A stretch of DNA of 64,000 nucleotides, from contig CM000432.1 of NCBI GenBank assembly GCA_000165345.1, forward strand, positions 1 through 64,000, given 5' to 3'. A program made the translations under genes and the position numbers. The notes under the pieces were generated by a model. That model was not told the origin of the DNA, made no database searches, and worked only from the letters and a program-made list of their open reading frames with translations. Of the stretch, positions 1-55,100 are shown piece after piece (the first letter of the stretch is position 1; every line of letters starts with the position of its first letter).

Positions 1-45
1 CCCAGCTTGGCATGCCTGGCGGGGCGGATCTCGCGGGATCCCCCC
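1..45. other. non-genomic adaptor or cloning-vector polylinker remnant at contig end (pUC-like MCS with base-call errors)
   Basis: CCCAGCTTGGCATGCCTGGCGGGGCGGATCTCGCGGGATCCCCC resembles AAGCTTGCATGCCTGCAGGTCGACTCTAGAGGATCCCC (HindIII-SphI...BamHI-SmaI). It is GC-rich and unlike the rest of the window, and it sits directly distal to the telomere repeats. Confidence 0.4.
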
Positions 46-770
46 CTAAAACCCTAAACCTAAACCTAAAACCCCTAAACCTAAACCTAAAAACCGAGAC
101 CTAAACCCTAAACCCCTAAACCCTAAACCTAAACCTAAACCCTAAACCTAAACCTAAACCCTAAACCTAAACCCTAAACCTAAACCCTGAAGCCTAGACC
201 TAAACGTAAACCTAAACCTAAGACCTAAACCTAAACCCTAAACCTAAACCTAAACCTAAGGGCCGGAAACCCTAAACCCTAGACCCCTGAAACCTGAACT
301 AAACCCTAAAACCTAAAACCTAGACCTAAACCGAAACCTAAACCTAAACCCTAAACCTAAGACCTAAACCTGAACCTAAAACCGAAGCCCCTAAACCTAA
401 AAGCCTAAACGCTAAAACCCTAAACCTAAAACCTAAACCTAAACCCTAAACCTAAGACCTAAACCTAAACCTAAACCTAAAACCCTAAACCTAAACCTAA
501 ACCTAAAACCCTAAAACCTAAACCTAAACCTAAACCTAAAACCTAAACCTAAACCTAAACCCTAAAACCCTAAAACCCCTAAACCTAAAAAAAACCTAAA
601 ACCTAAAAACCTAAAAACTAAAACCTAAAACCTAAAACCTAAACCTAAACCTAAACCTAAACCTAAACCTAAACCTAAACCTAAACCTAAAACCTAAACC
701 TAAACCTAAACCTAAACCTAAACCTAAAACCTAACCCCCTAAACCTAAACCCTAAACCTAAACCTAAACC
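41..770. repeat. telomere repeat array, CCTAAA on + strand (TTTAGG on - strand), about 120 units. Variants such as CCCTAAA and CCTAAAA are common in the distal 450 bp, and the proximal 160 bp is near-perfect.
   Basis: Hexamer periodicity can be read directly. The C-rich strand runs 5'->3' on + at the left end, which is the correct polarity for a left chromosome terminus. TTTAGG is the telomere unit reported for Cryptosporidium. Confidence 0.95.
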
Positions 771-1451
771 AATCACCTTTTTATTTAATTGTCTGTAAAG
801 TTATAATCAAATCATATTCTTGAAATTGACAATGAGAAAATTACTAGCAACGCTTAGTCATTTCAGAAAACTATTTCACAATATTCTTTTTAAATTAATG
901 ATTTATTAATTATGATTTTTTTATTTATAAATATATTGCTTAATTTGTATTTTTTTTCAAGTCGCCCATTTGTAAAAATTAAAAGAATTCATTTAATAAT
1001 CATTTCATATGCAATTTTATTTAATCACAATTATTTTTTTATTTATTGGACATTTCGCAAAGTGGTTGCTTGATACGGCTATTAGTTTATTGATATTTTT
1101 TTATAGAGACCAATAACAAAAATCTGATGTTAAAATATAAAGATGCCAAACATACAAATTAGATCGATTATAACGATCATTTATCGTTAGGTTTTGGTTT
1201 TGGACATTTTTCAAGCAACTTAATGAACTCAATTTAGTTATTTTTATTATTCAAGAATGCAAAATAAGGTAGAAAATATTACACCAATTGGTTGGACAAA
1301 CACAAAATAACTTTGAAAATATTGTTAAAGTAGAACTAACGCCTACAAAACATTATTGATATATCTATATAAGGTACCAATTTAATTCAGTTCATAGAAC
1401 CAGCTTCACACGAAAAGTTATTAAAATTTAATCCTGAGAAATTGATATTTT

Positions 1452-1934
1452 TCATATGTTAAGAACTCTCCTCAACACTGATCTTCTGGGCTTTGGTAGA
1501 ACCGGTGGAGGGGGTGGTGGAAGTGATGGAAGTGAGTCTGGATCTTCAGAAGAAAATGACGAACCAATTTCTTCTTGTGAAGGTGGTGGTGAGAAAGAAA
1601 GTGATTCTACTGGAGCTTGTGGGGCCGGGAAAGGAGGTGGTGGGGGGATTACTTCTAAATCAATTGATTCAGGATTAAATTGACAGTTTGAGTGGCCTTG
1701 TTCTTCAGAGGTATTGCTTGAAGAATTAAGTTCATCCTCAGAATCAGAATCGCAACTTGTTGAGCAGCAGCAACAACATAGCCTACGTCTAATACGTCTC
1801 ATAGCTTTACAACATGGGCTCTTTACCTTAATAAAAGAAAAACTTAATAAGTTTGAATGAAAAGAAATACTACTTGGATACTGAAATATTAAAAACAAGA
1901 ATGAAATAAATAAGTGGAGTTTAAATATTTTCAT
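1452..1934 (-). CDS. hypothetical small secreted Cys/Pro-rich protein (160 aa) with a signal-peptide-like N-terminus, a CCCCC run and PPPPP tracts. It is the telomere-proximal gene.
   Basis: Intact 160-aa ORF whose GC content is clearly above the surrounding AT-rich DNA. It has a hydrophobic N-terminus (MKIFKLHLFISFLFLIF). The + strand ORFs 1456..1683 are its antisense shadow. Confidence 0.35.
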   Translation of the reverse strand: MKIFKLHLFISFLFLIFQYPSSISFHSNLLSFSFIKVKSPCCKAMRRIRRRLCCCCCSTSCDSDSEDELNSSSNTSEEQGHSNCQFNPESIDLEVIPPPPPFPAPQAPVESLSFSPPPSQEEIGSSFSSEDPDSLPSLPPPPPPVLPKPRRSVLRRVLNI

Positions 1935-4409
1935 TTTCCAAATAAAAAATTAAACGCGTTTTTCACTAAAAATTGAACGGCATTATTCTAAAAATGTCCT
2001 TAAAAAAAAAACCCGCTCATATCCATTGCAATGATTTGGCAATACAAGTATTTGTCAAGTTTGCACTAAAAATAATGTATTTTAAAGAATTATAACTATC
2101 ATGAATTTAATTTGTTGTTAACTTTGAATATCCTTTTTTAGTTACAACAAACAATTTATAAATAATTTTTTCTTTTGGGATTTTATTCAATACAAAATTC
2201 ATTTTTTTGTCCATTAAGAACATTAGCGCTAAATGTTGATTAAAGCCACTTCAATATATACTTTTAAAATTACCGTTTTGTTTCTTATTTTTTTATCATT
2301 GGATAAAAAGAAAATTGGATGTATTTTACTAACTTGACATCTTCGTTTCTAAACTATTAAAAAACTTAAACATAAATTAAATAACTAATTATAACAAACT
2401 TTTTTGTTAGAAAAATATTATTTTTCTTGAATATTTAAAATATTCAAGAAAAAAATTTACAATATATTTGCGAATTTATCCAATTTTATTGGAAATAAAT
2501 AATAGGGTGCAAAAAATTGGAAATCTGACAATTGCGCACTGTGGTCACTTACAATAAGTTAAACCATGTGAGCAGATGTTGTCTAACTTAAATAAACTTT
2601 GAAAAATATATATAAAAGTTTCAAATAAGAACTGCGAAAAATTAGTTTAAATTATTATGGTGAATTAAAATTACTAACGTCAAAAACTTATTTACTTAAG
2701 TGACAACAATAACAAATTGTAAAATGTATTGTTAATAAAAAGTAACTATCGCTTTAGTTAATGAAATAAATAACTACAATTATATTGTACTAATATTGAA
2801 AAGAGTTTAATTAATTATTTTTTTGATGAATTTCTTTTACTAAAAAAAAATTTCAAATGACACTTGAGAAAGCTGATTAGTTAAATAAACTCATTCAATA
2901 AATCCACTAGAGAATAACTGAATGTATCATAAAAATCCATCTTCTTTTATCATTAGTAAACAATCTTTAATAATGTAATTGTTAGTGGCATTGAATAATT
3001 TACGAATTTTATGATATATTGATGATTATTTATCACTAATATTTTGAAGAGAGGAAAAAAAAAAGAAATTTATGATAAATTTTGGTTTGAAGCTCGTTCT
3101 TAATTTTTTATTATAACTTGAATTTAAAATATACAAATATTAAAATTTATTAGATACCAAAAAAAAATCTTTGACATTTGCAATTTTAAAGAGAAAAGTT
3201 AATAAAAATTAATCAAGATTAAAGTGTATTCATTTTGACTATATCACTTTAAGTTACTATAAATAAATTAAGGGATCATGTGGCATACATCAAATTAATT
3301 CCCTTCGGAAAAATGACTAATCAACTTTTTTCTAAATTAGAAATATTGAATTGTAAACACTCATTTGTTTATATTAGCTTTTAAAACTCGCTTTAATAAA
3401 AATGAATAATTATGTGGCTAAATAAATAATTACATATCAAAATCTATGATATTTATTTAAAATAATTAAGCTATCAAGCGAGAAATCAAAGGGTAGCAGT
3501 TGTAATAGCAAGTCCTAATATATTATGAATAACTAATTTAAGAAATAGAAAAAAATTGTAATTTAACTTTGTTCTTAGTATTAGACATTAATACCTTTAA
3601 ATACAAAATAGCATCAAATATAGCATATGAAAGACAAAATGTACTATCAAATTAAAATGTCAATTTCTGGTGTATTGAAAATGAATATGAATTATTTTGA
3701 CTATTTACAAGAATTTTATTATAAAATAAATTAACTAAAATGTAATTTGTAGTTTATTAAATAATTTGATATTATATTTCAAAAGCTTTTGTTTTGATAT
3801 ATAATATTTTTTAAAAAAATTAAAAAAAGTGTTTAAAAGTGATATTAATTAAACATATTATGTAATTAATATAAGAATTAATCACAAAAATAATGAGAGT
3901 ATGTAGTGTTTTTGTACTATTAATCTGTAAAGTTGAATATTTTAATTCAGTTAACACGCAAGTGCAGCCTGCCACAAATTATTTCTAACAAGATTTGATT
4001 AATTAAGTATTTTTGTAATATTTTGCCACTATAACTGAATTTTCACAAATAAAATGTCGAGATGATCAGTGTAAAGTAACAGAATAAATTATTCGGTAAT
4101 AAAATGATTAATACCTACAATTATTAAGCATTAGAAATAAATTAGAGTGCAATAAATACTGAAATTATTGAAATAATGTTATGGTCAACCCAATAATAAA
4201 TAATACCATTCCAATTATTTTTATTTAATAGTTTATAAAATTTGGTAATTTAAAAAATCGATTTTGGCGGCAAGAGAGTATTATTTAAGCTAGTCTTGAA
4301 ACAGCAATGCAACTTAATCTTAATTGGATTAAATCAAATATTTATACAAGTTCAGCTTAGATTATTAAATTTCACTATTTGATTTGATGTACTAACTTTA
4401 AAAAAGAAT

Positions 4410-5417
4410 ATGAAAAGAGAATTGTTATTTTCTTTGAAATTACTTTTTTATTTTACGGTAACAGCACTAATATATAATAAAGCAAATGCTGAAACTATTA
4501 TTAATAAAGTTAATAATAAAAATAACAATTATAAAAGACCAAGCTACTTAATCTTTGGGAAAAATAATATTCTTACTCCAAATTATTCTAAAGAAGTGGA
4601 TTGTCTTGGCCCACCAATATATTTTTTTGATGTTGCTAATAGAAAAATTGTGAGCTTGAAGGTTACCTGTAAAGATACATTTTTACTTATTAACAATAAT
4701 GGTGAACTAACTGTAAGATTAACAGATGAAGTCTACTATGTTAATGATCGCAAAGCTAAAAAGCATTTCTTTTTTGATTACAATTTTGATCCAACAACTT
4801 TTATTCAAAAAGAATATAACGATTTGACTGAAGTTGAACATAAAACTAATTATTTGTTGGAAAATAACTTTAATGAAATTCCAATAGATTACGATACATC
4901 TAATGATGGTAAATATTTAGACTGGATAGTGAAGACAGAGTTTTTAGGAGTTATTACAATTTCAGATACTACTGTTAAATTACCAAATTATAATTTTGGT
5001 CAACCAGAAAGTGAATTCGAAATTAAAATACCTGTTGAAACAAAATTATTTTTAATTTTTATAATTAAAACAAGTCTTCTTGGAATTCAAAATACTTTTT
5101 TTGCAGCTTTCCCTATTTTCTTTCTTTCTAAGATTATATATGATGTTAGGAAGCCACTACTAAAATTCCAATTCGATCAGATTGGCTCAAACAGTTCAGA
5201 AATATATGATATTAAAAAGGGTATTCATTACTATAAAGGATTAAAATTAAAAATCAACAAGATTCATGGTGAAAAAATTTTATTTAGTGAGTCTTTATTT
5301 GAATTAGAGAAGTTAATTAAGGATAGATTTGATAAATTGAAAATTGAGCTAGATTCAAAACACAACCTTGGTATTATCAATTTCTTAAATTCAGTTAATA
5401 ATAATGAAGGAATTTAA
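4410..5417 (+). CDS. hypothetical secreted protein, 335 aa, N-terminal signal peptide (MKRELLFSLKLLFYFTVTALIYNKANA)
   Basis: Long ORF in otherwise ORF-free subtelomeric DNA with a canonical signal peptide and an ATG start. No recognisable domain. Confidence 0.5.
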   Translation: MKRELLFSLKLLFYFTVTALIYNKANAETIINKVNNKNNNYKRPSYLIFGKNNILTPNYSKEVDCLGPPIYFFDVANRKIVSLKVTCKDTFLLINNNGELTVRLTDEVYYVNDRKAKKHFFFDYNFDPTTFIQKEYNDLTEVEHKTNYLLENNFNEIPIDYDTSNDGKYLDWIVKTEFLGVITISDTTVKLPNYNFGQPESEFEIKIPVETKLFLIFIIKTSLLGIQNTFFAAFPIFFLSKIIYDVRKPLLKFQFDQIGSNSSEIYDIKKGIHYYKGLKLKINKIHGEKILFSESLFELEKLIKDRFDKLKIELDSKHNLGIINFLNSVNNNEGI

Positions 5418-6572
5418 CTTCAAATAGAACAAACTATTTTAAACAATTCATCTGACAAACTTTAAAATCAAGTCTTAAATAATATACAAATTACCAACAC
5501 AATTATGGTAATAACCGCTAATACCAAATAATCAACATCAACTTCTGTAAACTCGAATAATACTATATCCTTCCTAGTAACTAAAACTGGCTTTTTTAAT
5601 AAATCTATTTCGTAATTAAATGCGCCTATTTGGCACAAATAACATAAATTTTAGTTTATTACCTGTTAAAATGATATTGATTAATAATCTATATTATAAT
5701 AATTGTTATAGTTATTCTACTTTTTTAATATTATAATTTTTATATTAATTTATATAATACCTATTATTGAAAGGCAAAATTTCCAATTGATTGTATAAAA
5801 TATAATTGTTTAATTCAATATAGTAATAACTAATTAAATATTAACATTTTAATTTTAAGAACATGTAAAACCAAATTAAAACTTTTAAGTATTTTTTATT
5901 TTTTTGTGATTCATTAAACAATATAATTCATAAAATCAAATAATTATTGCAAATACGAATTAAAAATCTTAAATAAAATGGATTAAATAATAGGAAACTC
6001 ATACCATCATATTATATATCTAAGATATTTTTATTATTGTCTGTTTCGTCTGTTTATCTTTAAAAAATATTCAGCTGAATTGTAAACTTTATTTTCAATT
6101 TACATTATTTAAAAACTAAGTTGTTTTTATATATGAATTATCAGAATGATTCTGTGATAATTTAAAATATTATCTAGAATTTAATAATTTTTACTTGAAA
6201 TTAAACTATAACAAAAAATATTGCAAATATCAATTTGACTTGTATTGAATTCTTAAGGTTTTTAAAATACTTTAATTTTTTTTTGGAAAAAGCTGTATCA
6301 AATCAAAATTCAGCTCTTAAGTTAGAAATATAAAATAATTGAAAATCAAATAGATTATGAAAGCTGGTTCATATCGCATATAAACCATTCTTAGATAAGA
6401 TTTTGCTCATAAAAATAAATAAAATGAAAAAAATGCTAGTCTTTCAATAATATCTTTAAAGTAATAGTTAATTTCACAAAATCTTAAACTATATTCCCTC
6501 AATTAACTAGTTTTAAAACTTTAAATACTTCACAAAAATTGAAATATTTATTAGAAAATAAGCTCTATTCGC

Positions 6573-6860
6573 TCATTTTCGTCCCAATTTTTGCTTAGCT
6601 TTTTTGATCTGGTCGTCGTAGAATGCGACCTTATCCTGATTCCCAGATAATTGAGCTTGAGCCCTTTTCTGTTCCAAAGTTTTAAGTCCATTCTCTAAGC
6701 CTCTCTTATCTTCCTTACTGAGAGGTTTTCTTAGTTTAAGACGTACGAAGGATTGCTCGAAAGAAACTGTGGAAACCTCGTATTCGGTGTTTCTAAAGTT
6801 TCCAAATAAAGCAACAATTGCAAAGATAAAAACAAGCTTAGCGAAGTTGAAAGTCTTCAT
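6573..6860 (-). CDS. hypothetical small secreted protein, 95 aa, signal peptide plus a lysine-rich tail
   Basis: ORF with a hydrophobic N-terminus (MKTFNFAKLVFIFAIVALFG). Its codon and GC composition is distinctly less AT-biased than the flanking DNA, which argues for real coding sequence. Confidence 0.45.
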   Translation of the reverse strand: MKTFNFAKLVFIFAIVALFGNFRNTEYEVSTVSFEQSFVRLKLRKPLSKEDKRGLENGLKTLEQKRAQAQLSGNQDKVAFYDDQIKKAKQKLGRK

Positions 6861-7431
6861 ATTTCTTGTAATATAACAAATTCGAATAATAAAAGTTAAT
6901 TATTTATTATCAAATAGATTTCTGAAAGTGATTGGTAGGAAAATTTATATTGTTAATTATTTGAGATTTTCACACTGTGTGAGTTCAAAGTTATTTTTTG
7001 GGATAACAATATTCAGATTTGACCAGTCTCCTGGTCTCCTTACTACCGATTATTTCTCTAAGATAAAAATTTATTAATGTATTGTATATATATGTGTGAA
7101 TAATTTTTACTGTGTTAAATATATACTTGTAACAAATTATTTTACTATTTACTCTTATATTTAGATGTTTAGTCTAATTTGAGTAGAATTTTTACAACAT
7201 TCATTATTTCAAAAACGGTCTTTAATGGTGCATTTAGCATTTGTGTGCACCCAAAGATATTGGGTGAAACTAAATATTTCCAGCTAATTTAATATAGCTA
7301 AATAGAAAAAATAAAATCTAATACTATATTTATTTTTGAGCTAGCTTAAACATTCAGTCTTACTATAAAAGAATTAAAATATTTATAATTACTTTCTTCA
7401 ATAAATTTATAAAATAATGCGGGATAATGTG

Positions 7432-7441
7432 TGCATGCGCA
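7432..7441. promoter_or_regulatory. TGCATGCGCA motif about 300 bp upstream of subtelomeric gene A
   Basis: Read directly. Confidence 0.3.
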
Positions 7442-7737
7442 TTTAATGTTAAATAAATAATAAAAGTCAGATTTAAAAGATAAGAAATCCTTTTATTTGT
7501 TAAAGAGTTACATTATTTCTGTTTAATTAATCTTCATTCGTCTAGTAAATTATCTAAAAGTGGTTGATTTTTTTTTGATGAATACATTTTTAATTAGTAG
7601 GAAAAATAATTAATTTTCGTAAATATATTTTTTGTAAAAAATAGACAGCACATAAATATAAATAGATAAATGGCATTGAAGGGAATTGAATTTTTTGGAT
7701 TTGAAGGCAGAATTTTATCATTGTTTAATAGTTGAAA

Positions 7738-9078
<1,341 letters not shown>

Positions 9079-9265
9079 ATTTCAATAACTACATTTTCGA
9101 GGCTCTATACTTCAAATTCAATATTTTTTTTTTAAGTTAATTTTTTTTGTATAGTAAATTTATCTGAGTGACTTCGATGTTAATATTTAAATATTTAGAT
9201 AATTAATTTGTTTGTAATAATTATTTCATCATTTTATTTTTAAATTGCACTAAGACACAAAATAT

Positions 9266-9275
9266 TGCATGCAGA
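9266..9275. promoter_or_regulatory. TTGCATGCAG motif about 170 bp upstream of subtelomeric gene B
   Basis: Read directly. Both paralogs therefore carry a GCATGC element at a similar upstream position. Confidence 0.3.
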
Positions 9276-9436
9276 GACTTTGCGTAAATATTTTATTTTA
9301 AATTTCAAATAATATTCTAAAAAAAATCAATATAATTAGGCATTGAAACATATTTTCCATTGTTTTAATTGAACCTAATTTGAAAAAATCCATTCTATTT
9401 TTGGGCAACGTTAATTTCTTTAGTCTGTAAGACAAA

Positions 9437-11383
9437 ATGGGTGCTGAAATAAGTAATTGTCAATTCACAAAATTAGGTGATGCATGCTATTCACCATTTT
9501 CAATGATAAATAACACATTAAGTGAAGCTGCTGCAAATAATTTTGTCTTAAATCTTGAAAAGTCTAAATTCAAATCAGAAAATAATCAATATTGGCTTTC
9601 ATGTATGGTTGGTTCAGTGCCATATAATGGAACTTTAGAATGTGATGTTGAAAATTATGCAACAATCATCTGTGGAAATAGTAAGTTATACAATTTATTT
9701 TAAATTTGTTGTTAAGTTATTTACTCTTATTATTCATTTTAAAGAAAGAATGAGATTTAGACACAGAGAAAATTGTCTTTTTGGATTCCAATTTAGAAAA
9801 AATGAAACTATTGTTTTTGATGTAAGTAAAGAAAATAAAAAACATCACCAAATTCAAAATATAATTCTCTTAAAATGTTTAAATTATAGAATAGAGATCT
9901 TCAGAATCCTTTGTTAGCTTTCCCTCTTCCAACGAATCAATTGGCTGTTGCAACTCAATTTTATGATGAAAATTTCCAAGAGAAATGGGTTTTAAGAAGT
10001 GGCTTTTCAGGTAAGTCTTATGTATATTTCAAAATAGATTTTATCAAAACTATAATTATAGGTTATGTTCCAAATCTCGGACTTGTATTAGATTCAACTA
10101 TTCTTCATCCAGAGAATATTAAAACTCCTTATGATCAACTTAACAAAAATGATGCTAACGATAAAGAAACTGTTGTTTCTGATGCTAACGATAAAGAAAC
10201 TGATGTTTCTGATACTAATGAAGAACAGGCGAGCAATGAATATTTAATTCCGGTAGAGCAGAATAAAATTGAAAATGGAGGGACATTATCATTCAATATC
10301 ACTATTGGCAACTTTAAAAATGACCTTTTTCTTATAATAAGCGATAAAGATAAAAAGCAAATGATCAATCTGGAGTTAAGTAAATGCTGTGGCAAACTTA
10401 TTGACTCAATAAACGAAAATTATGATAGATTTTCATATCCAGAGGAATTAATGGCAAGTAATGCAATAGATTTAAACTTGACGTGGCAATCATCAATATA
10501 CGCCTTGAAAACAAAATCTTCCGATACACCTTTAGCAATAATTCCAATAGAAAATAAAAGCATTCCCTATCAAGCTGTTTTGCTGAACTCTTCAACAAGA
10601 GAAGAATTAAAAACAAACTGGAGTTACACTACAGGAGTCAAAAATCTAAGTTCTGTTTCGTGCACAATCAATGCATTAGAAGGTAGATGCAAAAGTTCAA
10701 GTGTTACAGTCACAAAAATGGTTAATCCAAACATAGAATTTTTGAGATTTGGCTTCCTGTTTTCTAAAGATACTTTGGCTCCTTTCGAAATGACCATTTC
10801 TCAAAACTCTAATAATTTGGCAACTTTACAAATATCATCAAATGTCATTAAAGTTCAATCTAGTGATTCAGAGGAAATAACTCTCAAAAAAGAATTTACT
10901 ACTGGAGAATGGGTTTCCGGAGATATTTTTATTATTTCAGATGATATTCATAATGTAATTGAAGAAGATAGCAGTATTTCATGTAAAAACTATAATGATT
11001 CGTGTTATAGTACACAAAATAGTCAGGACTGGATGGGTATAGTTAGTGAAAAATCTATTCTTAGATATGCGTACTTGAAGAAGCAGGCTGTGGAAAATAA
11101 AGTCAAAACAGATACAAACACTGAAGCTGATTCATCATCGTCTAGCTCAAAAACTCAGTATTACCTTTATATCTCATTTAAAAATTGTATTATTGCTAAA
11201 CTTAATATAAACTCTAATTCTTTTAACAAAGTTTCAGTTTCAAACAGACAAGGCTCAAGCAATTTAGTCTATTGGAGATTGAAAGGTGGTGTCTCCACCT
11301 CTATTAATATTCCCGATAGCTATCTGGATAATCTCAAAACAGATATTCCAAAAGAAATTGAGGCAAACACAAATAAAAACTAG
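9437..11383 (+). CDS. subtelomeric family protein B, 4 exons: join(9437..9680,9745..9821,9890..10010,10062..11383). It starts MGAEIS (N-myristoylation-type motif) and its C-terminal domain is paralogous to gene A.
   Basis: There are three GTAAGT donors, at 9681, 9822 and 10011, with AG acceptors at 9743-9744, 9888-9889 and 10060-10061. The introns are 64, 68 and 51 nt. The phases are consistent (1, 0, 1) and link three ORF-track fragments (9437.., 9642.., 9911..) into one reading frame. A 33-bp tandem duplication (NDANDKET x2) lies at 10147-10212. Confidence 0.6.
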
Positions 11384-11637
11384 TTATCAGATTCTAATAA
11401 CAAAATAATAATAAATTTATCTGTAGTAATGTAAATTATTATTTATTTAAAATAATGCTGATATCAAAAATATTGATTATGTTACCAACTAATCCAATTA
11501 ATTTTTTTATCCCGATATTATACATGAATTTAGCAACGTCTCGTCTCGCATGTAAATCGAGAATTTGTATTTTATGGAAATTTAATCCACAATATATTCT
11601 TGAGAAGGTTTGCTCTTCGGGTGTTAAATTAAATTAA

Positions 11638-13671
11638 ATGACTGAAAATTTACAAGAAGGTTCCTTGAATTTCGAATTGCCAAAATTTCAAATAGAAGTT
11701 GGGTTTTGGAAGGCTGCTAGTACTCTTAAATACGATGTTATTAAATCCAGTGAGGATTCGTTTGATATACTTGGTTTTTACAATCAAGAAACAAATATTA
11801 TTCGAATTAGACAAGAGTCTTTGAATTCGAAAAATAAAGAGTATTTAGGTAAAGTTTCAAATTAATATTTCTAACTTAATTTTTTTTTAAATTTCATTTT
11901 TTCGAAAAATTTTTTAGAATACAATAATTCCGTGATTGGAAAGTTGAGTTTAGTCAACTCCATGTCAGCTATCATTAATTTTGGTAATATTGATCATGGC
12001 TGTGACTCCTACCTGGAATCTGCAGTTGATAATGCAATGATGTGGATTAATAATAGTTCTAACCATGAAAAATATCCATTTACTTTCAAATTATGCATTT
12101 ATTTTGATTTTAAAACCCAAATAGCTTATTATAGTGCTTTTTTTCCTAATGTAAACACTAATTTCAACATTAAGACTGACAAACAATCTGAGCTGGGAAT
12201 TGAAATTAAATCAAATTTGCCCGAATATTCTGGTTCGTATATAGATTTAAGCAGCATTAATAAAAACTCAAATTCACTAGCAGTTCTTAAAACATTAAAA
12301 GATAGAGTGGAGGGAAAAATTGGCAATTTTAATGATGAAACAAGCATTGAAAAAAAAGAAAGATTTGATTGCCCATGGTTTTTTTCAACATTACTTACCA
12401 TTATACTTTTTAAAGACAAGTATAAGAATTTACTCAAAACCAATGAAATTATAAAGCTTTTGAAAGAATCAGGTTCGAATGGGAATTTTAAATTTGATTC
12501 GAGAAGCTGTTTTATTTCAAATAAGCATGTTAAAAATGTGCTTGCTATTAGCGATAAAGAAATGAAAGAATTACAATCTGAACACATTCTACCATTTGAT
12601 TTGAAAAATTACTTAAGTCCGCATGAACTCCAACAGAGATTGAGCACAATGAATATTGACTTAATTAAGTGGAGGCTAATACCCAATTTCGAACAGATTC
12701 ACTTTAAGAATTTGAAATTCTTGATAGTAGGTAGTGGTACATTAGGTTGTAGTGTTGCTAGAAATCTTATTGGATGGGGCATACGAAATTTTAAATTCAT
12801 TGATCACTCTAAAGTCAGCTTAAACAATCCAATGAGGCAGTGCTTATTTACATTGGAAGATGTCAAAAATAAGAAAAATAAGGCCATAGCTGCGGTTGAG
12901 AGACTACGATATGTTTGCCCAGATATTCATGCAGAAGGAATCGACTTTGAAATTCCAATACTTGGTGATTCAACATTAAGTCTTGAACAGTTTTTGAAGT
13001 CAGTTAATGAAACAAAAGATAACATAATTGATTCTGATGTGGTAATGTTACTTACAGATAACAAAGAATCAAGATGGCTACCTACAGTCCTTATTGGGCT
13101 AATCAACCGCTATTATAATAGAAGGAGGCCAATATTATGCATCACAGTTGGATTAGGATTTGATTCATTTATTGTAGTCAGAAATACATTCACAGAAACG
13201 GATTATTCTAGTTCTGGGTGCTACTTTTGTGGAGATTTTTCAATTAATTCAAAAAATAATACATTAGATATTCCAGTTGATCAACAATGCTCTGTTGTTA
13301 GAATGGGGGCAAGCTACTTTGCATCTTCAATTGCAGTTGAATTAATTATGAATCTATCTCAGCATCCATTGACATGGAATGCTCCTCATTTAAGTAATGA
13401 ATCTAATAAATCTGATGAAAATAAAAGCCTTCTAGGCACAACTCCACAATGTATTAGAGGGTTTTTAGCTGATTTTTCATTCTGTACTGATCCTATTCAG
13501 AGGAATAAATGTTGTATTGCTTGCTCAGACAAACTAATTGATAAAATTCATAAAGATGAAGTTAATACATTAAGCGAAATTTTTATCAACCCTCGAAAGG
13601 TTGAATCAATTTCTGGATTAACCAATTTTAAATCTGAAATGGAGAAATCAATAACAGAAAGTTATATCTAA
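11638..13671 (+). CDS. ATG7: ubiquitin-like modifier-activating enzyme ATG7 (E1-like, ThiF family), 2 exons: join(11638..11848,11918..13671)
   Basis: The Rossmann motif VGSGTLGCSVARNLIGWGIRNFKFIDHSKVSLNNPMRQCLF matches the ATG7 signature LLLGAGTLGC..R.L.GWGV....VD...VS.SNP.RQ. SRWLP, GFDSF, GCYFCGD, LDQQCSVVR and CCIACS are also conserved. The 69-nt intron has donor GT at 11849 and acceptor AG at 11916-11917, and is phase 1. Confidence 0.85.
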
Positions 13672-13730
13672 CGAGAATACTAGAAAGTTTCCTAAATATT
13701 CAATAATAATATTTCCGATTAATAAATATT

Positions 13731-16700
13731 CTATTTATTCTTTCTTTGTGATAGAGATTTTGATTTTTCTTGCCTATTATTTTGTACACTCATATTTTTG
13801 CCATTTCTAGATTGAAATGTAAAGTCTTTCACTTCGGATTCGCCATCAATTATATACTTAGATCCTACCATACTAGTATGATTATATCTCTTCGATGATT
13901 CTATGGAAAGCCCCTCATTATACCATTTCATGAAATTCCTTTCAACTTCTTCAGCCGAAATGATTGAAGTCCCTGCAATCGGAAGAATATCTTCAAACTG
14001 CTTTCGAATCTTAATATATCTTGCATGATCAAATTCGTGATCAAGTCTCCCATCCAAAGGATCCCATCTCGGTGGAAGAATTAACTCATTTAATCTCTTC
14101 ATTTCAAGTAACTCTTTAACATCAGGCCTTACAGGGATATTAAACCCGAATACTTTATCATATATTCCATCATTATTAAATTCTTTAAGTTTCTTATTTC
14201 TTTCTTTTCTAATTTCTTTAGCTACCATTCTTGCATCTATTATTCTTAATCTAAATTCTTCATCATCTGGATATACCATTGGCAATGCATCTGGAAATAG
14301 TAATTTAAAATTTTTACTTTGTACTTTATTCTCTTTTGAATTTGAACATCTAATATCCGAAAGAAATTTAAACAAATCATCTGATGCAGTTTTTAATACT
14401 AAATTAAAAAATAAAATTATAGTTAATTATTTAAATGTATTTTTAAGTCAAACTTACGTGTTGATTCTCCAAATTGTTGAGAAGAAAATATTACCCTAGC
14501 TCCTTTAGCTCTAAATTGGGAATTCTTTACGGCTGATTCAATTCCAAGAATTCTTATTGTATTCATAACACATTTTCTTACTTCTCCCAGTAGCTCAGTT
14601 TCATTTTCAACAGGAATATCAGAACTTGATCTATAACCTTTAATCTTTGGAATTAAGTACCTCAAGGTTTGTCCTTGTGGTTCATAAAAACCAGCTGAAT
14701 AAAGGGTTTTACCGATATCTTTTGCCTCACAATCGAAGATGTTTCCTTGTTCGATTAAATAAAGCATCTGTGCAGCAGCTTCTTCAGGAAAAGGTGATTT
14801 AAGAAGTCCTAGCATGAAATTGGTTTGTTCATTATCACCAAGTTTGTGTTTGTAATAAAGAGACAATCCATCATTAGATTCTTTTGCATCCAAAATCTGC
14901 TCTTTATCGCCATATAATTGTTTATGCTTGTTATATTGATGAATTAAAAAAAATGTATCAACAAATACTTGTTGAATCATAAAAAAAGCTGTTCCAATAT
15001 GAAATGTCATAATTGTAATCTCAATAATAAATTCAAATTTTGGATAATAACTATAAAAGCAAAGTAAACAAGGAATAAATATTAATGTGAAACCGGAAAT
15101 TATTGTATTAATATTTAAACTTGTAGAAAATATCCACCAGGGCTTATCCATTCCATTCTTTTTACTACTATCACTGTCATCAACTGGAGAAATAATACTT
15201 TCAAAGAATACTAGTATGGAGTAAATTGAAAGTACAAAGAGTATTAAATATCTGGCAAACACATAATTCAGATTTAGAACATTAATTATTCCAGAGATAA
15301 TGTAAAATCGAACTGATTCCCAATATAAAACTGAAATTTTATAACCAGAAAAAAGAAAACTGCTACTAATTGTATACAATTGATTTTGTCTGATAATTTT
15401 TTTACGAATTACAATACCAGAAATTATATTTATGAGTGGAAACATTGTACAATAATAAATATATCCAATAAGTGCATCGCTATTAAGTGTTTTACAAGGT
15501 AACAAGTAGCATTGTGATTGGACTGTACCAAAACCTGGAATATTTGTACATGTCATAGAAACTATAATAGACCAAGAAACTGTTGAATAAATAAGTGTCA
15601 AATAGACTTGAGAAGTACAAATAAATCTGTATGTAGACTTTTCCGTTTGATCCTTAAGTATTTTATTAAATTTTTCTAATCTTGCGGATGATTCCATAAC
15701 TTTCATCCTGTTTAACTCGGTTTTTGTATCATTTTCTTTATATATTTTGTTTACATCGATTATATGTTTAATAGTAAACGTAATAAATAAGATTGCAATA
15801 CCAAGAATTGGTACTGAATTAGCAATAAACAAATCTGCATTTGCATCAGTTAAATTTACTTGGCCAACTGATTGCATGATAATTGGAAATAACTTAAAGA
15901 GGCATTTTGACGGAAAAATCCCCAATGGGAGCCATAGATTAGGTGATAGAAGTTTTATTATTTTGAGATAATGGATAAAGAATTCATCCATATTTTGAAA
16001 TTCAGAATCCTTATACTTAACAAATATACCATATGTTGTGCTAATGGAAATGAAAAATAGTAAATTCTTAAATTTAGCAATTACTGCAGAATTTCTTCTA
16101 CTTAGTGCTGTATATTTTATAGATAATTCACTTACTCTTGCAATACCATAAGAAATGAGTAATACTAACATAATCATTCCAATAAAAGCCACCAATAACA
16201 AATATTGATTTGGGCATTCAATACATGATTTATCTAATCCATATTCTAATGGGAAGTAGCCGCTTGTGCATGTATTACATAATGGACCAGTATATCCTTC
16301 TTTACATCCTTTGCATTCTGGTAAGCAAGCTTCTTCATGAGGACATTTTATTACTATACCAACATAATTATCGCTGAACCACCAACCTCCATTTTTAAGT
16401 TTTTCGTTAGTAGTACAATAATTGCTATCAAATTTTCCTGGGCAAACATATTTTTGAGAATTCAAAGGACATGAAATACAACTGTTAGTTGACTCTAATT
16501 TAAAAAATCCTGGAAGGCAAATGCATGAATCTAAACTGTACAAGCCGGTATCTCCATATGTACTGGAATTTATTGGACAGTTTACACAAGAATATAAATT
16601 GGTAGTTAACCCCACAGTATTTTCTGGGCAAGGTGTACATTGATTACCATCAAAGTAGTTGCCCTTTTTGCACGGAGTATCTGATGAATTTATGGCATCA

Positions 16701-17152: not shown

Positions 17153-17190
17153 GTGCATTTATTGCATGCATTGCATGCCTGCATGATTCA
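17153..17190. promoter_or_regulatory. cluster of TGCATGCA-type motifs (GTGCATTTATTGCATGCATTGCATGCCTGCATG) in the divergent promoter between genes 13731..16789(-) and 17604..18169(+)
   Basis: Three overlapping GCATGC cores read directly. TGCATGCA is a recognised over-represented upstream element (AP2-type binding site) in Cryptosporidium and other apicomplexans. Confidence 0.5.
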
Positions 17191-52197: not shown

Positions 52198-55100
52198 ATG
52201 ACAATTTCTAGAAGCAGTTCATCATTAAATGAAGATGGAAAAATCAATCGAAGTAAGATTGTTCCATATATTACAAGAGAGATGAGTATTGCTCAGCTTC
52301 AAGATAAGAAATACCATAGTTTTGTGCAAAATACATTGGCAGATTATCAAGCAAGTGCATTTGATGCTCAGAAAATTGCATTGGAAAAAGATAAAGAGCT
52401 TAAAGAGTTGAGAGATACACAAAATTCAGTTAAGGTTTCGTTAAAGTATTATCAAGAGAAATGCCAGCAGTTAGAAAATGAGCTTAAAGCAACTTCAATG
52501 GGGCTATTATATGGGAGGAAGGAAAAAGAACAAGAGAGAGAAATTGCAAGATTGAGTACTGAAATAACAAGTTTTGAGAAAAAAAAAGAGGAGTTAGAAA
52601 CAAACTTGAGATATTATCAAGATAGAGAAATGTATTTACAGCACGAGTTGGAACTTAAAGAAAATGAATTAAATAAGCTATCTCAAGAATTTGCCACTTT
52701 AACAGAGACATATAATAGTACATATTCGGAATTAGAGAAATGTAAATTTGACTTAAGTACGGAACAGAATAATAATAAAACATTAGAAAATCAATTAAAA
52801 GTAAAGAATGACGAGATTACAAAATATAAAGGAAGTTTAACAACTAAAGAAGCGGAAATTAATAATTTGAAGAATGAAATACAAAAATTGAACTCAATGG
52901 TTGAAATCAATAAATCTGAAATAAATACTATTAGTGAGCAGCTTAAATTAAAACAGAAAGAGTGCTTAGATTATAGTAGTAAGATTCAACAAATAGAATT
53001 GGATATGAGAAAAAACTTGGATGAAAACGAAGTATTAATTAAGGATTTAAATTCACAGATAACTTTGACTAGAAATGACTTGACTCAAAAGGTTGAATTA
53101 ATTAATGAGTTAAACTCTCGAATTTCTACATTAGATTTAAAGCTACAAGAATCGTCAAGAGATATATTGGAAAAAGAAAAAACTATAGGAAAGCTTAAAG
53201 CTGAACAGCAGATTACTAGTTTAGAGGCTGATGGTCTTAAAACGAAGATTCAGATTATTGAACAAGAGAAAACCAATATTGAACAAGAAATTGAAACGAT
53301 ATTGGTAGAAAAGAAAAAAATAGATGAAGAACTTAAAGATACAATTAATAGGAAGAATTCCAAGTTAGATGAAGCTTTAACTTACAGAATTGAATCAGCT
53401 ATAACTGCTGAGAGAGAAATTAATCAACTTAAAGAAAAGAACCAAATAATTGAATTTGAGAAAAAAATGATGGAGGAAAAATTGGAAATTTCTAATAATA
53501 ATATAAAAATAAAAGATGATGAAATTCAACAACTTAAAACTACAATCCAAGATCTTAATCGACAAAATATTAAACTTGAGAATGAGCTTCATTCATTACA
53601 AGAAAGTAGCAGAAGAGAAAGTGTGGAGAATACATTTAGAAGTAGTAGAATTGGCTCAAATATTGTAAGTAGTAAAATCAATGCATCATCTGGGTCTACA
53701 GTTAATACCAGTGAAAATACAATTTCTAGTAATATAGCAACTAGTAATGCTGAAACTGTTGAAAAAGTAGTTAATGCTGATACTTTAGTTGACACATCTA
53801 TTCAAGATTCAGCTGTAAATGCTGCTTCTACAACAGTTAAAATGCCATCATCCAAATCAATTTCAAGTAAAAGTGCAATTTCCTCATTGCCAAAGCCAAA
53901 AGCTAAAAGTGCAGTTAAATCAGCTCCTGCTACTGAAGAGAATAACGGTGATCAAACAATATCTGAACCTGCATCTATATCTGAAGTTAAATCTAAAGCT
54001 GGAAGTAAATCAATGCCAGTTTCAAAATCCAAATCTGTAATTAAAGCTAAATCTCAGGTTGTTGCTAAATCCGATATGGATTCTGGACAAATTGTAAAGG
54101 AAGACAATGAGACCAAGGACAATGAGGATGAAGCGGCCAAGGTTAGAGCTCAGAAAGAAAAGGAGGAAGCAGAAGCAAAAGCTTTAAAAGAGAAGGAAGA
54201 AGCTGAGGCCAAAGCCAAGAAAGAAAAAGAAGAGGCTGAGGCTAAAGCTTTAAAGGAGAAAGAAGAAGCTGAGGCCAAAGCTAAGAAAGAAAAGGAGAAG
54301 GAAGAAGCTGAGGCCAAAGCTAAGAAAGAAAAAGAGGAAGCTGAGGCCAAGGCTAAGAAGGAAAAGGAAGAAGCTGAGGCCAAAGCTTTAAAAGAGAAAG
54401 AAGAAGCTGAGGCTAAAGCCAAGAAAGAAAAGGAGAAGGAAGAAGCTGAGGCCAAGGCAAAGAAAGAAAAAGAGGAGGCTGAGGCTAAAGCTAAAAAGGA
54501 GAAGGAGGAGGCTGAGGCAAAGGCCAAGAAGGAGAAGGAGGAAGCTGAAGCCAAAGCTAAGAAAGAGAAGGAGGAAGCTGAGGCCAAAGCTAAGAAAGAA
54601 AAAGAGGAAGCTGAGGCCAAGGCTAAGAAGGAGAAGGAGGAAGCTGAGGCCAAGGCTAAAAAGGAGAAGGAAGAGGCTGAGGCTAAAGCCAAGAAAGAAA
54701 AGGAGGAGGCTGAGGCTGAGGCTGAGGCAAAGGCAAAGAAAGAAAAGGAGGAGGCTGAGGCAAAGGCCAAGAAGGAGAAGGAAGAAGCTGAGGCCAAAGC
54801 TAAGAAAGAGAAGGAGGAAGCTGAGGCCAAAGCTAAGAAAGAAAAAGAGGAAGCTGAGGCCAAGGCTAAAAAGGAAAAAGAGGAGGCTGAGGCTAAAGCC
54901 AAGAAAGAAAAAGAAGAGGCTGAGGCTAAAGCTAAGAAGGAGAAGGAGGAAGCTGAGGCCAAGGCTAAAAAGGAGAAGGAAGAGGCTGATACAAAAGAGA
55001 AAGAGAAGACAGAAATCAAAGAAAATTCAAAAATAGATTCAGATAGTGAGGAAAACTCTGAATCTAAAGAAAAGAAGTCAACTGGACTACTTGCTAAGAC

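What the first reader, a model, noticed from the sequence alone, without database searches (positions are those of the whole stretch)
1..770. Chromosome terminus with TTTAGG telomere and a vector-like distal tag
The window opens with about 730 bp of CCTAAA hexamers in the left-end polarity. This identifies a physical chromosome end and, with the AT content and gene structure, a Cryptosporidium-like genome. The first 45 nt are GC-rich and look like a pUC-type polylinker with base-call errors (AGCTTG-GCATGCCTG...GGATCCCC). That suggests the assembly end is a telomere clone that still carries vector sequence. The repeat units are more degenerate distally than proximally, the reverse of the usual pattern, and this may simply reflect low read quality at the clone end.
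Basis: partly seen in the sequence, partly recalled or inferred. Interest (0 to 1): 0.55.

Follow-up and report, generated by a model that had tools for sequence, protein, structure and literature searches.

The report
Cryptosporidium chromosome-4 telomere with vector remnant
The window starts at the genuine left telomere of Cryptosporidium parvum chromosome 4, and its first ~43 bases are a badly base-called leftover of a pUC-type cloning vector, so this is a known structure plus a small assembly artefact.

Summary
Positions 46-770 are a 725-bp CCTAAA array of about 110 units, 49 of them canonical. It meets unique DNA at base 771.

The genes identify the window as C. parvum (IOWA lineage) chromosome 4, left end. 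Four independent C. parvum assemblies and C. tyzzeri place telomere repeats at exactly the same junction. None of them carries the 45-nt tag.

Positions 1-43 align collinearly to the pUC18/19 polylinker, from HindIII through SphI, PstI, SalI, XbaI and BamHI. The match is 33 of 43 positions and stops at the SmaI blunt-cut half-site (GGATCCCC), directly against the repeats. It scores 30, against 13.9 ± 2.0 (maximum 24) in 2000 shuffles. ONT, PacBio, Illumina and pBluescript sequences score 18 or less.

The array contains 24 G's, all at 96-456, in 14 different unit types. About 1950 nt of comparator telomere arrays contain none. The vector stretch shows the same G-biased error pattern, so these units are most likely base-call errors.

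The reversed gradient is only partly real. The innermost 120 nt are cleanest, but the decline outward is not monotonic.

The source assembly was not identified; the 2004 Sanger IOWA II assembly is inferred. Low interest; already known.

The parts
1..43 (+). Remnant of a pUC18/19 (M13mp18/19)-type polylinker, HindIII side to the SmaI half-site (…GGATCCCC), with about 23% base-call errors. It is not parasite DNA.
   Evidence: Local alignment of 33/43 scores 30, against 13.9±2.0 (max 24) in shuffles; 0 of 2000 shuffles reach it. The same alignment is obtained against public vector-bearing records CP045673.1 and U36911.1. SphI (10-15) and BamHI (37-42) are intact. GC is 75.6%. The tag is absent from all other assemblies of this chromosome end.
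39..48 (+). Vector-insert boundary: GGAT followed by a run of seven C's, then TAAAA. Four C's are accounted for by BamHI/SmaI (GGATC+CCC) and the rest by the first telomere unit. The exact junction base is ambiguous within the run.
   Evidence: Read directly from the sequence; the alignment ends at GGATCCCC.
46..770 (+). Telomere array, with the C-rich strand (CCTAAA)n on the + strand. The G-rich strand TTTAGG therefore runs 5'->3' toward the chromosome terminus on the - strand.
   Evidence: TRF; pattern search giving 45 matches against 0.02 expected; unit parsing. TTTAGG is the published Cryptosporidium telomere repeat (PMC8848321, PMC12179316, PMC4407392).
96..456 (+). Error-rich stretch of the array. 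It holds all 24 G's of the array, in 18 units of 14 different types, including a messy patch at 255-298.
   Evidence: Fisher test against 457-770 gives p=4e-7. There are no G's in the roughly 1950 nt of comparator arrays.
560..637 (+). Stretch with A-run and C-run length variants (for example CCTAAAAAAAA, CCTAAAAA x2, CTAAAA). These could be slippage or base-calling noise, or real length variants.
   Evidence: Similar run-length variants occur in other assemblies, so they are not diagnostic on their own.
727..770 (+). Innermost 44 nt of the array, including the variant units CCTAA-CCCCCTAAA and CCCTAAA. It is identical in IOWA-lineage assemblies and represents the stable, inherited part of the telomere.
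   Evidence: Common suffix of 44 nt with CP141121.1 and CP029783.1. The last 30 nt are also present in a Logan contig assembled from a public sequencing run.
771..1451 (.). Telomere-adjacent AT-rich unique DNA. The junction at 771 is shared by C. parvum strains and C. tyzzeri. Most of this stretch (771 to about 1361) is absent from the C. hominis end.
1452..1934 (-). First gene of the chromosome, encoding a 160-aa Cys/Pro/Ser-rich hypothetical protein (EAK87709.1 / CPATCC_001472). Its 3' end lies 680 bp from the telomere.
   Evidence: no Pfam family.

Best explanation
Window 46-770 is the left telomere of Cryptosporidium parvum (IOWA lineage) chromosome 4. It is an array of TTTAGG/CCTAAA units that caps the chromosome. 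By established telomere biology it is maintained by telomerase extending the G-rich 3' strand. That step is inferred, not shown here.

The innermost tens of bases are a stable, clonally inherited pattern of variant units. The outer part turns over.

Window 1-43 is not parasite DNA. It is the HindIII-to-SmaI half of a pUC18/19-type polylinker. A blunt-ended genomic fragment whose end lay in the telomere, either the natural polished terminus or a shear break, was ligated into the SmaI site of the plasmid. A low-quality Sanger read crossing the vector-insert junction was then incorporated into the consensus.

Vector trimming failed because miscalls left no exact word longer than 9 nt. The same poor read or reads introduced the G-containing and other odd units at 96-456.

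Shown here: the telomere identity, the shared junction, the vector alignment, and the uniqueness of the G-bearing units. Inferred: the cloning history, the read quality, and that the source is the 2004 Sanger IOWA II assembly.
For: - **Telomere.** establish the repeat array. The polarity is correct for a left end. The junction at 771 is identical in CP141121.1, CP029783.1, CM109964.1 and the Logan contigs, and in C. tyzzeri.
- **Identity of the flank.** Unique DNA is 100% identical to CP029783.1 over about 41 kb and to CP044419.1 over 21.7 kb. Proteins match C. parvum Iowa II exactly.
- **Vector.** The alignment is 33/43, collinear through six restriction sites, and ends at GGATCCCC next to the repeats. 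It scores 30 against a shuffle maximum of 24 in 2000. The polylinker sequence was verified in public records. Rival adapters and pBluescript score 6-18.
- **Read start.** The window begins 11 nt past the M13 reverse-primer site in the pUC19 arrangement, or 22 nt past the -40 primer in the pUC18 arrangement. That is roughly where Sanger reads start to be called.
- **Errors.** Of 10 edits in the vector part, 6 create a G. In the array, 24 edits create a G (9 A>G, 4 T>G, 1 C>G, 10 G insertions). They fall in 14 distinct unit types. Comparator arrays contain no G in about 1950 nt.
- **Normal pattern elsewhere.** In the T2T assembly the same end shows the usual pattern, variant-rich for the innermost ~170 bp and almost perfect further out.
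- **Sanger origin of the candidate source.** The 2004 reference was built from Sanger reads (PMC8744675).
Against: - No word-seeded search flags the tag. Blastn with word size 11 against plasmids finds only chance hits, and blastn-short finds nothing at 1-43. The case therefore rests on a gapped alignment at 77% identity.
- The source assembly could not be identified. By coordinates it is none of CP044419.1, CP029783.1, CM109964.1 or CP141121.1.
- The window shows zero differences from modern assemblies over more than 60 kb. That is cleaner than the 99.93% average reported for the 2004 assembly (PMC8744675), although those differences may be clustered.
- The error density is not monotonic along the array (46-95 and 100-185 have almost no G). 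A single read decaying in one direction does not fully explain the pattern.
- The library vector of the genome project could not be checked, because the papers are not held.
Confidence: 0.88

Rival explanations
1. The distal part of the array, together with the vector tag, belongs to a clone from a different chromosome end. The assembler joined it to the chromosome-4 junction through the shared repeats. On this reading the artefact is as described, but most of 1-700 is not chromosome-4 sequence.
For: All chromosome ends share the same repeat. The window agrees with IOWA-lineage assemblies for only the innermost 44 nt, whereas CP141121.1 and CP029783.1 agree with each other for 162 nt. Collapsed repeats are reported for the 2004 assembly (PMC8744675).
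Against: Telomere turnover between parasite stocks, or sequencing errors, would also produce divergence beyond 44 nt. The array length (725 bp) is close to that in the T2T assembly (700 bp). Nothing tested here separates the two possibilities.
Confidence: 0.25
2. The G-containing and other odd units at 96-456 are real sequence of one cloned telomere, produced by telomerase misincorporation or by recombination. On this reading C. parvum telomeres can be more degenerate distally.
For: Variant units (CCCTAAA, CCTAAAA, CCCCTAAA) are real and heritable near the junction, as shown by independent assemblies. A preprint raises telomerase misincorporation as a possibility in this species (10.1101/2021.01.29.428682).
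Against: There are no G's in about 1950 nt of arrays from five other assemblies and three species. The 18 G-bearing units fall into 14 types, with G at every unit position and as insertions, which is not what a templated variant would give. The adjacent vector stretch, whose true sequence is known, shows the same G-biased errors at about 23%.
Confidence: 0.06
3. The first 45 nt come from another synthetic source, such as a long-read adapter or barcode, an Illumina adapter, or a different vector polylinker, rather than pUC18/19.
For: ONT adapter contamination has been reported in GenBank records that include C. parvum (PMC13182109). The source assembly is unidentified. A>G errors on C-strand telomere repeats are also known from nanopore basecalling (own knowledge).
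Against: Adapter and polylinker sequences, recalled from memory, score 6-18 against 30 for the pUC polylinker. Those scores lie within or near the shuffle range of 13.9±2.0. The pUC match also ends exactly at a blunt cloning site.
Confidence: 0.04
4. The 45 nt are genuine genomic DNA distal to an interstitial telomere-like array, and the chromosome continues beyond the window start.
For: The C. tyzzeri record shows CCTAAA arrays with sequence on both sides.
Against: Those C. tyzzeri arrays are each preceded by a single 'n', meaning contigs were concatenated. Four C. parvum assemblies and C. hominis end in the repeats. At 76% GC the tag is foreign to a region that is about 24% GC.
Confidence: 0.01

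Closest known systems
Cryptosporidium TTTAGG telomeres (Liu et al. 1998, cited in PMC8848321; ends of the CpBGF T2T assembly, PMC12179316)
   Same: Same repeat unit, same polarity and same terminal position. The junction base is the same as at the chromosome-4 end of CP141121.1, and the innermost 44 nt are identical.
   Different: The window's array carries 24 G's and a 43-nt non-telomeric tag that no other assembly has. Beyond 44 nt its pattern of 6-mers and 7-mers differs from the other IOWA-lineage assemblies.
pUC18/pUC19/M13mp18-19 polylinker as residual cloning-vector contamination at the end of a Sanger contig
   Same: The order HindIII-SphI-PstI-SalI-XbaI-BamHI-SmaI(half) is preserved. 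The match ends at the SmaI blunt cut, the classic shotgun cloning site, and lies at the very end of the sequence.
   Different: Identity is only 77%. HindIII, PstI, SalI and XbaI are corrupted, and no exact word exceeds 9 nt, so ordinary screens miss it. No further vector sequence is present to confirm which plasmid it was.
Variant-repeat zones of telomeres (proximal degenerate repeats, as in human or Plasmodium telomeres; own knowledge)
   Same: The innermost ~45-170 nt of this end hold fixed, lineage-specific variant units in all assemblies.
   Different: The window's extra degeneracy lies distally and is best explained as error rather than biology.

Membership tests
Telomerase-type eukaryotic telomere (Cryptosporidium TTTAGG type) | Tandem array of the short species-specific unit TTTAGG/CCTAAA | tested here: met
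   TRF finds period 6, 109 copies, score 720. There are 45 matches to (CCTAAA)3 against 0.02 expected, and 49 of 110 units are canonical.
Telomerase-type eukaryotic telomere (Cryptosporidium TTTAGG type) | G-rich strand oriented 5'->3' toward the chromosome terminus | tested here: met
   At this left end the + strand reads CCTAAA toward the centromere, so TTTAGG on the - strand points outward.
Telomerase-type eukaryotic telomere (Cryptosporidium TTTAGG type) | Array lies at the physical end of the chromosome, with no genomic DNA beyond it | tested here: met
   CP141121.1, CP029783.1 and CM109964.1 (C. parvum) and CM098021.1 (C. hominis) all terminate in the array. The three C. parvum records share the window's junction base; in C. 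hominis the junction lies ~590 bp further in. The only sequence beyond the array in the window is vector-like.
Telomerase-type eukaryotic telomere (Cryptosporidium TTTAGG type) | 3' G-overhang, telomerase-dependent maintenance, capping proteins | not testable with these tools
   Requires biochemistry or genetics. This step of the mechanism is inferred from general telomere biology.
pUC18/19 / M13mp18-19 polylinker remnant (vector contamination) | Collinear match to the polylinker in the order HindIII-SphI-PstI-SalI-XbaI-BamHI-SmaI | tested here: met
   Match of 33/43 with 3 single-base gaps; score 30 against a shuffle maximum of 24 (0 of 2000 shuffles reach it). The same alignment is obtained against public records CP045673.1 and U36911.1. 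SphI and BamHI are intact; the other sites are damaged.
pUC18/19 / M13mp18-19 polylinker remnant (vector contamination) | Match ends at a cloning site where insert DNA begins | tested here: met
   The alignment ends at GGATCCCC, the SmaI CCC^GGG half-site, directly followed by telomere units.
pUC18/19 / M13mp18-19 polylinker remnant (vector contamination) | Hit in a standard vector screen (UniVec/VecScreen or equivalent word-seeded search) | tested here: inconclusive
   UniVec is not available here. Blastn with word 11 against PLSDB gave only chance hits, and blastn-short gave none at 1-43. The longest shared exact word is 9 nt. This is a detection criterion, not proof of absence.
pUC18/19 / M13mp18-19 polylinker remnant (vector contamination) | Further vector backbone (lacZ-alpha, primer sites) continuing beyond the polylinker | not testable with these tools
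   The window starts at the polylinker, 11 nt downstream of where the M13 reverse primer site would end.
Interstitial telomeric sequence | Repeat array flanked on both sides by genomic DNA of the organism | tested here: not met
   The distal flank is 76% GC, vector-like and absent from all other assemblies.

The most novel reading that the evidence does not exclude
The G-bearing and irregular units at 96-456 are the true sequence of a single cloned C. parvum telomere. That would mean the outer, newly synthesised part of the array can be more degenerate than the inner part, through error-prone telomerase or recombination-based maintenance.
Probability: 0.04. Interest if true: 0.4.

Novelty: already known. 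Interest (0 to 1): 0.12.

Why it matters
Biologically there is nothing new here. The TTTAGG telomere of C. parvum and this chromosome-4 end are already represented in telomere-to-telomere assemblies.

The practical value is curation. About 43 nt of cloning vector and roughly 360 nt of error-laden repeats sit at the start of a public chromosome sequence and escape word-seeded contamination screens.

Such a tag can hide a telomere from detectors that are anchored at contig ends. This may contribute to the discrepant telomere counts published for the 2004 assembly (10 present in PMC8744675, 3 in PMC12179316), though that link is speculation. The tag could also be mistaken for telomere variant repeats or for sub-terminal sequence.

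Tried and rejected
- **Word-seeded search of window 1-60.** Blastn (word 11) against PLSDB plasmids gave only chance hits with E of 0.4 or worse. It was uninformative because miscalls leave no seed.
- **Blastn-short of public vector segments against the whole window.** The only result was a 13-nt chance word at 17171-17183 (E 0.15). No other vector is present in the window.
- **Alternative synthetic sources.** PacBio SMRTbell, ten ONT adapter and barcode flanks, three Illumina adapter sequences (TruSeq, universal, Nextera) and the pBluescript polylinker were tested. All were recalled from memory. They score 6-18 against 30 for pUC and were rejected.
- **Literature on the library vector and telomere cloning.** Abrahamsen 2004, Liu 1998 and Liu 1999 are not held. 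No paper reporting this artefact was found.
- **Identifying the source assembly by coordinates.** CP044419.1, CP029783.1, CM109964.1 and CP141121.1 were excluded. The 2004 assembly and GCA_019844115 were not retrievable.
- **Interstitial telomere arrays in C. tyzzeri as a precedent for sequence beyond the repeats.** Rejected, because each array follows a single 'n' spacer.
- **tRNA scan of the window.** None found.

Full report
**What is in the sequence.**
The window opens with 45 GC-rich bases (75.6% GC). These are followed by a CCTAAA array that TRF places at 53-770 (period 6, 109 copies, score 720). The triple unit with up to 2 mismatches occurs 45 times, all on the + strand within 53-768, against 0.02 expected from shuffles. 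There are no matches in the remaining 63 kb. Parsing 46-770 gives 110 units, of which 49 are canonical. The commonest variants are the 7-mers CCCTAAA (13) and CCTAAAA (12). Unique AT-rich DNA starts at 771 with AATCACCTTTTT. The C-rich strand reads toward the chromosome interior, so the TTTAGG strand points outward, which is the polarity required of a left-end telomere.

**Which chromosome end this is.**
Three ORFs of the window are exact matches to C. parvum Iowa II proteins EAK87709.1, EAK87708.1 and EAK87703.1, and to their IOWA-ATCC and CpBGF counterparts. The C. hominis ortholog of the third carries the locus tag CHM_4g70, indicating chromosome 4. Unique DNA at 771-15417 is 100% identical to CP029783.1 and 99.986% identical to the T2T assembly CP141121.1. 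Further in, the window is 100% identical to CP044419.1 (IOWA-ATCC) over 21.7 kb and to CP029783.1 over 26.3 kb. TTTAGG is the published Cryptosporidium telomere repeat (PMC8848321, PMC12179316, PMC4407392).

**Independent confirmation that this is a physical end.**
- CP141121.1 carries 700 bp of array.
- CP029783.1 carries 311 bp.
- CM109964.1, a different C. parvum strain, carries 453 bp.

All three begin or end in CCTAAA repeats that meet unique DNA at exactly the base corresponding to window 771. Two Logan contigs assembled from public sequencing runs reach the same junction. None of these records has anything resembling the first 45 nt of the window.

C. tyzzeri has repeats at the same junction. 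In C. hominis the telomere is joined about 590 bp further in, at window ~1362-1365.

**The 45-nt tag.**
Positions 1-43 align collinearly with the pUC18/19 polylinker:

- window: CCCAGCTTGGCATGCCTGGCGGGGCGGATCTCGCGGGATCCCC
- vector: CCAAGCTT-GCATGCCT-GCAGGTCGACTCTAG-AGGATCCCC

That is 33 matches, 7 substitutions and 3 one-base insertions, scoring 30. In 2000 shuffles of the 45-mer the mean was 13.9, the SD 2.0 and the maximum 24.

I first used the polylinker from memory. I then verified it at 100% identity in public vector-bearing plasmid records and repeated the alignment against two of them, CP045673.1 and U36911.1, with the same result.

The match runs HindIII-SphI-PstI-SalI-XbaI-BamHI and stops at GGATCCCC, the SmaI CCC^GGG blunt half-site, directly against the first telomere unit. 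SmaI-cut pUC is the classic blunt-end shotgun cloning vector (own knowledge).

The window begins 11 nt past the M13 reverse-primer site in the pUC19 arrangement, or 22 nt past the -40 forward primer in the pUC18 arrangement. That is about where Sanger base-calling starts. The alternative, that the tag is the decaying tail of a read primed inside the insert, cannot be excluded.

PacBio, ONT and Illumina adapter sequences and the pBluescript polylinker, all recalled from memory, score 6-18.

The longest exact word shared with the vector is 9 nt. This explains why blastn with 11-nt words and blastn-short do not report the match. It probably also explains why vector trimming and contamination screens missed it, though that is an inference.

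**The odd repeat units.**
The C-strand of this telomere should contain no G. The window's array has 24, all between 96 and 456. There are none at 46-95 or 457-770 (Fisher p=4e-7 for 96-456 against 457-770).

Comparator arrays from five other assemblies of three species, about 1950 nt in total, contain no G at all.

The 18 G-bearing units fall into 14 types, with G at every position of the unit and as insertions. That looks like scattered noise and not like a templated variant.

The vector stretch serves as an internal control, because its true sequence is known. It has about 23% errors, and 6 of the 10 edits create a G. This is the same bias seen in the array (9 A>G, 4 T>G, 1 C>G, 10 G insertions). 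I therefore read these units as base-call errors.

In the T2T assembly the same chromosome end shows the usual pattern. Variants concentrate in the innermost ~170 bp, and the array is nearly perfect further out.

The canonical fraction is 0.72 in the innermost 120 nt and 0.28-0.50 everywhere else, without a steady trend.

**What is biologically real in the array.**
CP141121.1 and CP029783.1 share the innermost 162 nt exactly, including about a dozen 7- to 9-mer variants. The second strain's chromosome-level record and a Logan contig share 55 nt with each other. Between the two lineages only 8 nt are shared. The junction-proximal variant pattern is therefore heritable and lineage-specific.

The window shares 44 nt with the IOWA-lineage assemblies and then diverges, mostly by single extra A's or C's. 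This could reflect telomere turnover, sequencing error, or an assembler joining a telomere read from another chromosome end. I could not separate these possibilities and give the chimera variant about 25%.

**Source assembly.**
By coordinate offsets the window is not CP044419.1, CP029783.1, CM109964.1 or CP141121.1. A plasmid polylinker points to a Sanger clone-based assembly, and the 2004 IOWA II reference is described as Sanger-based (PMC8744675). This remains an inference. The project's methods papers are not held.

**Mechanism.**
The array caps the chromosome and is maintained by telomerase adding TTTAGG to the G-strand 3' end. This follows from established telomere biology and was not tested here. 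The inner units are copied faithfully by replication and so persist as a lineage signature (shown by comparison). The tag is a cloning and trimming artefact (alignment shown, history inferred).

**Verdict.**
The feature is a known telomere carrying a small, previously unflagged vector remnant and low-quality repeats. It matters for curation but not for biology.

Noticed in passing
L008 (C. tyzzeri PYHZ01000004.1) 1847-1975 and 6301-6357: Two CCTAAA arrays lie upstream of the chromosome-4 homologous end, each preceded by a single 'n'. Telomere-bearing contigs appear to have been concatenated onto 'chromosome 4'. The inserted ~4.3-kb piece carries two SbmA/BacA-like transporter genes (Pfam E 3e-55 and 4e-61) that presumably belong to another chromosome end.
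   Followed up: partly
L007 (C. hominis CM098021.1) 1-210, against window 771-1365: The C. hominis chromosome-4 telomere joins unique DNA about 590 bp further in than in C. parvum and C. tyzzeri. The end was truncated and re-capped (or extended) since the species split. There is no shared telomere-associated repeat.
   Followed up: partly
window 727-770; L001 539-700; L002 150-311; L023 399-453; L024 12-66: The innermost telomere units form a heritable, lineage-specific pattern of variants. It is 162 nt identical between two IOWA-lineage assemblies, 55 nt identical within a second strain, and only 8 nt identical between the lineages. It could serve as a strain marker.
   Followed up: partly
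window 52198-57699 (+): An 1833-aa ORF with a strongly purine-rich, K/E-rich repetitive core: a 33-nt unit x24.8 at 54147-54989 and a 321-nt unit x2.6 at 55250-56101. It causes the GC and AT skew peak at 54-58 kb. No Pfam family is on record for it in the other assemblies.
   Followed up: no
window 7732-9078 (+), repeat at 7768-7826: A subtelomeric 448-aa ORF with an (ACT)x19.7 poly-threonine tract, mucin-like. Pfam matches are below threshold only.
   Followed up: no
window 1452-1934 (-): The first gene is annotated as 160 aa in IOWA II, IOWA-ATCC and CpBGF but as 116 aa in CP029783.1, although the DNA there is 100% identical. CM109964.1, whose DNA over this gene was not compared, also has 116 aa. 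This is an annotation inconsistency at least for CP029783.1.
   Followed up: no
window 17171-17183: A 13-nt exact match to the pUC polylinker word around SphI/PstI. E is 0.15 within the window, so it is judged to be chance.
   Followed up: yes
literature (PMC8744675 vs PMC12179316): The 2004 IOWA II assembly is said to be 'missing six telomeres' in one paper and to have 3 assembled telomeres in another, which used an end-anchored detection script. Non-telomeric tags or degraded units at contig ends, like the one here, could cause such under-counting. This is speculation.
   Followed up: no
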